NCBI RefSeq assembly: GCF_006345805.1
Contig: NC_043008.1
Coordinates: 46,066,001-46,130,000 of the forward strand
DNA from: Octopus sinensis
Taxonomy: Eukaryota
Direction: 5' to 3'
DNA length: 64,000 nt
Below, in pieces: positions 61,416 to 61,749 of the stretch. Below the pieces are notes generated by a model, which was not told where the DNA came from, did not search any database, and was given only the letters and a program-made list of their open reading frames with translations. A program made the position numbers and the translations under genes. Positions within the stretch are counted from its first letter, which is position 1. Each line of letters starts with the position of its first letter.

Positions 61416-61483
<68 letters not shown>

Positions 61484-61515
61484 TTTATTTTAAGCAGCAG
61501 AAAATTCAACAAAAT

Positions 61516-61553
61516 CTGTTACTCTGAGTTTCTCGTTGCCGTTCATCAGACAG
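61516..61553 (-). ncRNA. Minimal type I hammerhead (left arm of palindrome)
   Basis: Exact reverse complement of 61567-61604. Confidence 0.8.
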
Positions 61554-61566
61554 TTTTTGCAAAAAA

Positions 61567-61604
61567 CTGTCTGATGAACGGCAACGAGAAACTCAGAGTA
61601 ACAG
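61567..61604 (+). ncRNA. Minimal type I hammerhead (right arm of palindrome)
   Basis: ctgt-CTGATGA-a.cg-GCAA-cg.a-GAA-ACT-cag-AGT-A-acag; GUA triplet, GNRA loop II, A.A at the base of stem II. Confidence 0.8.
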
Positions 61605-61706
61605 ATTTTGTTGAATTTTCTGCTGGTTAAAATAAAGCATATTACTCTACCACTGGTATTTGAGTACTCTTTTTTCCACCTTGTTTCACATTTATGTGTT
61701 TACTCC

Positions 61707-61749
<43 letters not shown>

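What the first reader, a model, noticed from the sequence alone, without database searches (positions are those of the whole stretch)
61483..61708. Minimal 155-bp palindrome encoding the same hammerhead on both strands
Seen: almost the whole element is two back-to-back hammerheads with essentially no spacer, plus a ~70-bp one-sided tail. A transcript from either strand contains one ribozyme and its exact antisense, so it can fold as a ~75-bp hairpin that blocks cleavage or as a ribozyme. Known: PLEs often have a 5' inverted partial pLTR and a tailed 3' pLTR. Inference: an ultra-reduced PLE derivative, an orientation-independent RNA switch or dsRNA source, and a likely DNA cruciform.
Basis: partly seen in the sequence, partly recalled or inferred. 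Interest (0 to 1): 0.7.

Follow-up and report, generated by a model that had tools for sequence, protein, structure and literature searches.

The report
Head-to-head stub of Penelope retrotransposon
The palindrome is one of thousands of short head-to-head insertions of a Penelope-type jumping gene, likely made when two DNA copies of the front end of its RNA were started on opposite strands and joined, so it is likely an insertion scar that records how these elements copy themselves and not an RNA switch.

Summary
The palindrome is real: two 76-bp arms (one mismatch), a 3-nt centre and a 71-bp one-sided tail, inside (TA)n. It is the end repeat plus tail of a Hydra-clade Penelope-like retroelement (145/147 identical to an ORF-bearing copy). 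A 25-mer of the arm has 6,749 exact matches in the genome.

In a 74-locus sample, 42 loci are short head-to-head stubs with many different joints. Of 48 two-armed insertions, 47 pair one tailed with one tail-less arm, either arm can be longer, and 6 have a tail-only partner. Arms agree at 115 of 116 subfamily-site comparisons, yet a new mutation stays one-sided. Arm ends pile up at the A of an initiator-like motif (278 versus 30 one base further).

Best reading: two separately primed cDNAs run to the RNA's 5' end and join. The hammerhead motif is the clade's own, but it is predicted to cut only as a dimer and to be locked in the hairpin (+81 kcal/mol), so a switch is unsupported. Cleavage and expression are untested. 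This scan noted the twin-primed reading before on other DNA of this genome.

The parts
61419..61482 (.). left (TA)n target repeat
   Evidence: sequence
61483..61558 (-). short (tail-less) arm: end-repeat positions +1..+76 reading leftwards, ending at AATAAAG against (TA)n; position +1 = 61562 on the right arm, 61558 on the left
   Evidence: the same end point in the tail-less arms of the sample
61516..61553 (-). hammerhead motif of the left arm; predicted cut between 61520 and 61519
   Evidence: mirror of the right arm; activity untested
61559..61561 (.). joint: shared GC (parent positions -2,-1) plus one extra A
   Evidence: the five-A form occurs 29 times in G000 and in a contig of run X1
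61562..61637 (+). right arm, end-repeat positions +1..+76; private C>G at 61626
   Evidence: 145/147 identical with tail to ORF-bearing copy L058; G form 13 versus C form 6,749 exact matches
61567..61604 (+). hammerhead motif of the right arm: stem I CUGU/ACAG, core CUGAUGA 61571-61577, stem II two pairs with GCAA loop and A.A at 10.1-11.1, GAAA 61588-61591, stem III ACUC-A-GAGU with 1-nt loop, predicted cut after GUA at 61600
   Evidence: commonest form, 42 of 68 motifs in the sample; a like motif in a published Hydra-clade element
61638..61708 (+). tail, +77..+147: the parent's sequence between its 5' end repeat and the rest of its leader; the ORF's ATG follows 67 nt after the tail in full-length copy L065
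61709..61744 (.). right (TA)n target repeat
   Evidence: sequence

Best explanation
The palindrome is a truncated head-to-head insertion of a Hydra-clade Penelope-like retrotransposon, likely formed when the element's enzyme nicked both strands of a (TA)n repeat and primed two separate cDNAs that were then joined at a short shared sequence. Inferred steps: one cDNA starts at the tail end (+147) and the other at the end-repeat boundary (+76); both copy RNA from the same source towards its 5' end; that end lies at about the A at -8, so the leader yields only 85-155 nt of cDNA; the two cDNA ends anneal at 1-4 shared bases (here GC) and are sealed. The hammerhead is a passenger of the end repeat. 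In any read-through transcript it is predicted to be locked in a 75-pair hairpin, so the copy is likely dead as a ribozyme and as a mobile element.
For: Shown. (1) Parent: arm plus tail is 145/147 identical to L058, which carries a 589-aa open frame with YRDD, CxCx5C, CxxC and CxH and no CCHH; RWK and DKT lie in L059 and L065. In full-length L065 the tail follows the 5' end repeat and precedes the ATG. (2) Sample: the 74 loci behind the first 100 of 6,749 matches (contig C1; tallied by hand). 48 are two-armed with both outer ends readable, 3 have an unreadable second end, 23 show no second arm in the stretch fetched. Of the 48, 47 are tailed plus tail-less, 1 is tail-less twice, 0 tailed twice; 42 are under 400 bp. 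(3) In the 47, the tail-less arm reaches further upstream in 26, the tailed arm in 15, about equal in 6. In 6 of 47 (L103, L120, L127, L134, L144, L156) the tailed arm stops at or before the end-repeat boundary, so there is no palindrome to fold back. (4) Arms agree at 115 of 116 comparisons over five subfamily sites, against 51-83% expected by chance. (5) Nested exact counts: 4,951 arms reach +1, 2,518 reach -7, 1,476 reach -12. 278 arms reach -8 with a purine at -9 (29 of 30 inspected are joints), against 30 of 46 that reach -9 with a purine at -10 (12 of 20 inspected are joints by my reading). In the sample 30 of 67 arms end in -1..-8 and 2 of 37 in -9..-16 (about 27 of 64 after removing two over-extended calls and one duplicate). 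Arms ending at -8 join partners of very different lengths. (6) Published biochemistry: an anole Penelope protein nicks and extends both target strands, starts at two internal sites that bound the tail, and is predicted to be a dimer (PMC11167929).
Against: All of it is fossil evidence; no RNA 5' end, RNA cleavage or reverse transcription was observed. Deletions at hairpin tips after insertion could also give varied, lopsided joints. The region -8..+5 is rich in self-complementary words (GC, CTAG) and the bases just beyond it match neither (TA)n nor the other arm well, so part of the cliff may be microhomology supply. A cap-derived extra G at -9 was not shown: only 2 of 19 G's are clearly untemplated, and the TA-joined arms inspected lack it. 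Arm agreement cannot tell one RNA from two RNAs of one source. One tail-less/tail-less case exists (L149). The sample is one part of one contig, and arms of one insertion are not independent. Pfam and PDB searches gave no hit for the ORF, so its identity rests on motifs and on comparison by eye with published Hydra sequences.
Confidence: 0.72

Rival explanations
1. Fold-back self-priming: one nucleic-acid strand (an antisense RNA, as proposed in PMC3846280, or the first cDNA) snaps back and copies itself, and later deletions at the tip diversify the joints.
For: Published proposal for head-to-head Penelope repeats. Perfectly symmetric joints exist (L101, L117, L130; 29 exact GC joints). It explains arm agreement directly.
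Against: A cDNA fold-back predicts the tailed arm always reaches furthest, but the tail-less arm does in 26 of 47. Six insertions have a tail-only partner, two of them opposite arms of about 1 and 1.7 kb. It gives no reason for the second arm to stop exactly at +76.
Confidence: 0.15
2. The palindrome is a self-propagating non-autonomous element (MITE-like or retrozyme-like) copied as a unit.
For: Short stubs are the majority class (42 of 74 loci). Some joints recur. Non-autonomous Penelope derivatives are known (bioRxiv 10.64898/2026.07.22.740005; PMC8557442).
Against: Joints are mostly different. The same joint sits on different subfamily backgrounds (L002/L003, L098/L004, L101/L017), and such backgrounds also occur in long copies. 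This copy lacks the initiator-like motif. The one-sided G variant is never shared with the partner arm in 12 of 12 two-armed matches (10 independent insertions).
Confidence: 0.07
3. A selected, orientation-independent RNA switch or dsRNA source for the host.
For: A read-through transcript from either strand would form a 75-pair hairpin, a plausible substrate for editing or dicing enzymes (established knowledge, not tested).
Against: The antisense arm comes first on both strands; the ribozyme fold costs +81 kcal/mol; the single-arm fold is only -1.0 kcal/mol. Single minimal Penelope hammerheads showed no cleavage in vitro (PMC4209133). The copy is young (2 differences from a coding copy) and one of thousands, with no sign of selection.
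Confidence: 0.04
4. Fold-back library or assembly artefact.
For: No contig bridged this locus; the assembly shows homopolymer slips in several copies.
Against: Flanks are not mirrored, the tail is one-sided, the arms differ at one base, and head-to-head joints stand in short-read contigs of other studies.
Confidence: 0.02

Closest known systems
Hydra clade of C-terminal-endonuclease Penelope-like elements (Craig et al. 2021, PMC8557442; seen: passages, section 11, supplement passages)
   Same: RWK, DKT, YRDD, CxCx5C, CxxC, CxH, no CCHH; (TA)n target; inverted truncated copy and one-sided tail; hammerhead in the end repeat. The supplement shows a Hydra element with nearly the same stem I and stem III, and Hydra-1_Obim with a 1-nt loop III.
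   Different: A separate family from Hydra-1_Obim by eye (different N-terminus and hammerhead). Tail is 71 nt, against 30-40 nt described. Stem II is cut to two pairs with an A.A at its base. Short head-to-head stubs are the majority of copies.
Poseidon of Anolis carolinensis, PAc (Frangieh et al. 2024, PMC11167929; seen: parts 1-2 of 4)
   Same: Two fixed ends that bound the tail; AT-rich target; tail is sequence that follows the 5' end repeat.
   Different: Other clade; its ORF starts inside the hammerhead, here about 200 nt downstream. The parts read do not tie the two start sites to opposite strands or to inverted insertions.
Minimal type I hammerheads of metazoan Penelope elements (Cervera and de la Pena 2014, PMC4209133; seen: abstract, Results)
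   Same: Short stem I, palindromic stem III needing a dimer; pairs of motifs 100-700 bp apart on opposite strands were already noted in Schistosoma.
   Different: There stem II is longer than usual, here shorter; here the two motifs lie about 13 nt apart.
Penelope elements of Adineta vaga (Arkhipova et al. 2013, PMC3846280; seen: passages)
   Same: Head-to-head repeats, palindromes at the joint, tail on one arm, initiator-like motif in the end repeat.
   Different: That paper favours self-priming on an antisense template; the lopsided and tail-only joints here favour two primed strands.
LINE-1 twin priming (recalled, not read)
   Same: Both target strands prime reverse transcription and the cDNAs join at microhomology.
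   Different: LINE-1 inverts a different upstream segment; here both cDNAs copy the same segment from two fixed starts, giving an inverted duplication.

Membership tests
Hydra-clade Penelope-like element | single ORF with reverse transcriptase then C-terminal GIY-YIG-type endonuclease | tested here: met
   Parent copies carry YRDD then the linker and a YTG/SFKTRF/SLAKYVW/CKLCLLEK region, matching published Hydra sequences by eye. No Pfam or PDB hit, so this rests on motifs.
Hydra-clade Penelope-like element | RWK motif and DKG changed to DKT | tested here: met
   RLRWK and SDKTRN in L059 and L065; DK[TS] in 117 of 120 homologues
Hydra-clade Penelope-like element | CxCx5C linker, CxxC and CxH, no CCHH | tested here: met
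   (L058); some copies read CxF at the second cysteine
Hydra-clade Penelope-like element | insertion into (TA)n; end repeat with hammerhead; one-sided tail | tested here: met
Hydra-clade Penelope-like element | placement inside the clade on a reverse-transcriptase tree | not tested
   reference sequences were seen only in a paper supplement; no tree built
Hydra-clade Penelope-like element | short length (under 3 kb) | tested here: inconclusive
   unit is about 3.3-3.4 kb in L065 because of a 3' region of about 1.1 kb; the paper says 'generally' short
Type I hammerhead ribozyme | core CUGANGA, GAAA, NUH with stems I-III | tested here: met
   all core bases present, GUA site, stem I 4 bp, stem III 4 bp
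Type I hammerhead ribozyme | paired 10.1-11.1 closing stem II | tested here: not met
   A.A in this copy and in the commonest form; A-U in a minority subfamily that has U4C
Type I hammerhead ribozyme | stem III foldable in one motif | tested here: not met
   1-nt loop; monomer -1.0 kcal/mol, double hammerhead of two sense arms -13.6 against a cofold minimum of -15.2
Type I hammerhead ribozyme | self-cleavage | not testable with these tools
   arm ends at the predicted cut are slightly raised (7 of 117 at +38..+40) but confounded by stem I microhomology
Non-LTR retrozyme | head-to-tail tandem units each with a hammerhead | tested here: not met
   units here are head-to-head, single, and continuous with a coding element
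MITE-like non-autonomous element | uniform unit propagated as a clone | tested here: not met
   joints vary and recur across subfamilies; no genome-wide tree built

The most novel reading that the evidence does not exclude
The thousands of stubs are a fossil read-out of the Penelope insertion cycle: a dimeric enzyme primes from both strands of (TA)n at two coupled starts (+147 and +76), both cDNAs run off the 5' end of the RNA at an initiator A (-8), and they join head to head. This would explain in one step the tail, the inverted end repeat and the excess of 100-170 bp palindromes, and would map the promoter from DNA alone.
Probability: 0.5. Interest if true: 0.6.

Novelty: new member of a known kind. 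Interest (0 to 1): 0.37.

Why it matters
How Penelope-like elements make their inverted repeats and one-sided tails is still open: one paper proposes antisense self-priming, and in vitro work shows two start sites and extension of both strands without, in the parts read, linking them to inverted insertions. This family gives hundreds of countable joints that favour two coupled primings and point to an exact RNA start, both testable with one purified protein and 5'-end mapping. The single locus is ordinary. As a class, roughly 2,800 near-perfect hairpins (extrapolated from one sample) could feed editing or small-RNA pathways, which was not tested.

Tried and rejected
Flip-flop of the palindrome: the first 30 loci seemed to carry G in one arm and C in the other, alternating between tailed and tail-less arms. 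Rejected as ascertainment by my G-bearing query: G has 13 exact matches, C 6,749.

Cap-derived G at -9: 19 of 30 loci have G, but only 2 are clearly untemplated. Inconclusive.

In vivo cleavage read from arms that begin at +40: 128 matches genome-wide, 12 of 30 inspected are joints, most at short self-complementary words. Inconclusive.

Not supported, not excluded.

Rfam: no hammerhead model matched. Pfam: no hit for the ORF, and two weak unrelated hits among 5 homologues. PDB: none. The ESM Atlas gave no result. The homologue search returned 2,875 proteins at E<=1e-20; of the 120 listed none had an informative name.

Expression: no RNA holder listed. Runs X17 and X20 are only guessed to be RNA and are contigs, so they say nothing on start, strand or editing. 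Presence or absence of this insertion in other individuals could not be read, because contigs break at the TA repeats.

Literature: six full-text searches listed no paper whose title or abstract applies twin priming to Penelope inverted insertions. Subscription journals are not covered, and bioRxiv supplements were not seen.

Full report
Observation. The element at 61483-61708 lies between two (TA)n runs. 61483-61558 is the reverse complement of 61562-61637 at 75 of 76 positions, around a GCA centre, and a 71-bp tail follows on the right only. I number arm positions from 61562 = +1, so the arm ends at +76 and the tail at +147. Each arm holds a hammerhead core read outwards from the centre. Rfam has no matching hammerhead model.

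What it belongs to. A search of the window's genome (G000, 2.7 Gb) returned the same layout at many loci. Copies with longer arms led to an open frame. L058 carries 589 aa with YRDD, CxCx5C, CxxC and CxH and no CCHH, and its end matches the right arm plus tail at 145 of 147 bases. RWK and DKT lie in L059 and L065. These are the features given for the Hydra clade in section 11 of PMC8557442. The paper's supplement shows Hydra proteins with closely similar blocks by eye, a Hydra element with nearly the same stems I and III, and Hydra-1_Obim, which is a different family. Pfam and PDB gave no hit; no tree was built. In full-length copy L065 the tail follows the 5' end repeat and the ATG comes 67 nt later, as described for the anole element (PMC11167929, parts 1-2).

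How common. A 25-mer at the arm's end has 6,749 exact matches with C at +65 and 13 with the window's G. The apparent G/C flip between arms in my first loci was therefore an artefact of the query. I fetched all loci behind the first 100 listed matches, on contig C1: 74 loci. By hand tally are two-armed with both outer ends readable, 3 have an unreadable second end and 23 show no second arm in the stretch fetched. 42 of the 48 are under 400 bp. Scaling gives roughly 5,000 insertions and 2,800 short palindromes, an extrapolation from part of one contig.

How the palindrome forms. Of 48 two-armed insertions, 47 pair a tailed arm with an arm that stops at +76, and one has two tail-less arms. The tail-less arm reaches further upstream in 26 of 47, the tailed arm in 15. 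In 6 of 47 the tailed arm is the tail or part of it only, as short as 11-20 nt, opposite arms of up to 1.7 kb. A strand folding back on itself does not give these directly; two separately primed strands do. Deletion after insertion cannot be excluded case by case. Arms agree at 115 of 116 comparisons over five subfamily sites, so both come from one source. The new G variant is one-sided in 12 of 12 two-armed matches (10 independent insertions), so arms do not homogenise afterwards. The same joint recurs on different subfamily backgrounds, which argues against clonal spread of a palindromic unit. The window's own joint is the GC class, with 29 exact five-A copies.

Why the stubs are this size. 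Exact counts fall from 4,951 arms reaching +1 to 2,518 at -7 and 1,476 at -12. In the sample 30 of 67 arms end in -1..-8 and 2 of 37 in -9..-16 (about 27 of 64 after dropping two over-extended calls and one duplicate). Genome-wide, 278 arms reach -8 with a non-parental purine at -9, against 30 reaching -9 with one at -10; 29 of 30 and 12 of 20 inspected are true joints. The A at -8 sits in CCATTCT, which fits the initiator consensus YYANWYY (recalled). I infer that the RNA starts there and that cDNAs begun on the leader run off its end. Local microhomology supply may contribute, and a cap-derived G was not shown.

The hammerhead. All core bases and a GUA site are present. Stem I has 4 pairs with an A-U extension, stem II two pairs under a GCAA loop with A.A at its base, stem III four pairs around one base. 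This is the commonest form, 42 of 68. The single-arm fold is -1.0 kcal/mol and a double hammerhead of two sense arms -13.6. PMC4209133 (Results) reports that such minimal motifs need a dimer and that a single one did not cleave. In the palindrome each strand has one sense motif, preceded by its antisense; forcing the ribozyme fold costs +81 kcal/mol against the -131 hairpin. A switch is therefore unsupported. Arm ends at the predicted cut are slightly raised but inconclusive. The DNA arms fold at -89 and -86 kcal/mol, which makes a cruciform plausible but unshown. Expression, editing and dicing could not be tested.

Artefact. Flanks are not mirrored and the tail is one-sided. The five-A joint stands in a contig of run X1, which may be the assembly's own sample, and other head-to-head joints stand in runs X3 and X8 of other studies. 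This locus itself was not bridged.

What is known. Inverted truncated copies and one-sided tails are standard for these elements (PMC8557442), paired opposite-strand hammerheads were noted in 2014, and head-to-head palindromes were ascribed to antisense self-priming (PMC3846280 passages). Six searches listed no paper whose title or abstract applies twin priming to them. Earlier notes of this scan reached a twin-primed reading on other DNA of this genome; I had stated that reading before the look-up. Those notes call the host an octopus, which I did not test.

Verdict. A real but ordinary insertion, a new member of a known kind. Its interest lies in the family's joints as evidence on mechanism. 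Interest 0.37.

Noticed in passing
window 59797-61329: A second, larger head-to-head insertion of another family with the same design: tail-less arm ending at 59797, tailed arm ending near 61329, a hammerhead-like motif in each arm (broken at about 61203 in the right arm). At least 846 candidates in G000; one copy (L249) carries an ORF 34-44% identical to this family's.
   Followed up: partly
window 20452-20847 and 22045-22085: A decayed endonuclease-like stretch (33% to the parent ORF, E 9e-14) and, 1.2 kb downstream, a lone hammerhead-like motif with palindromic stem III: likely a third related family.
   Followed up: no
L032:212-3904 (G000:C17): A 3.7-kb inverted insertion of this family whose centre holds several short back-and-forth jumps inside the endonuclease region.
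   Followed up: partly
window 61574-61630: The ATG inside the hammerhead core opens a short frame of about 18 codons in the parent's leader; in the anole element the main ORF starts at about this place.
   Followed up: no
L112, L156 and others: Subfamilies with U4C in the hammerhead core, some of which pair 10.1-11.1 as A-U; the stem II loop stays GNRA (GCAA or GGAA).
   Followed up: partly
L004, L005, L007 (G000:C28) and L122: Whole stubs repeated in tandem with their flanks, by segmental duplication or assembly.
   Followed up: no
L013, L018, L025: The same deletion between two CTGGT words removes the arm/tail boundary in three copies.
   Followed up: no
L149:3754-3809: The one insertion with two tail-less arms, nested in a more complex inverted structure.
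   Followed up: no
window 9235-9636 and 35883-36401: Fragments that look like LINE-type reverse transcriptase reading frames; judged by eye only.
   Followed up: no
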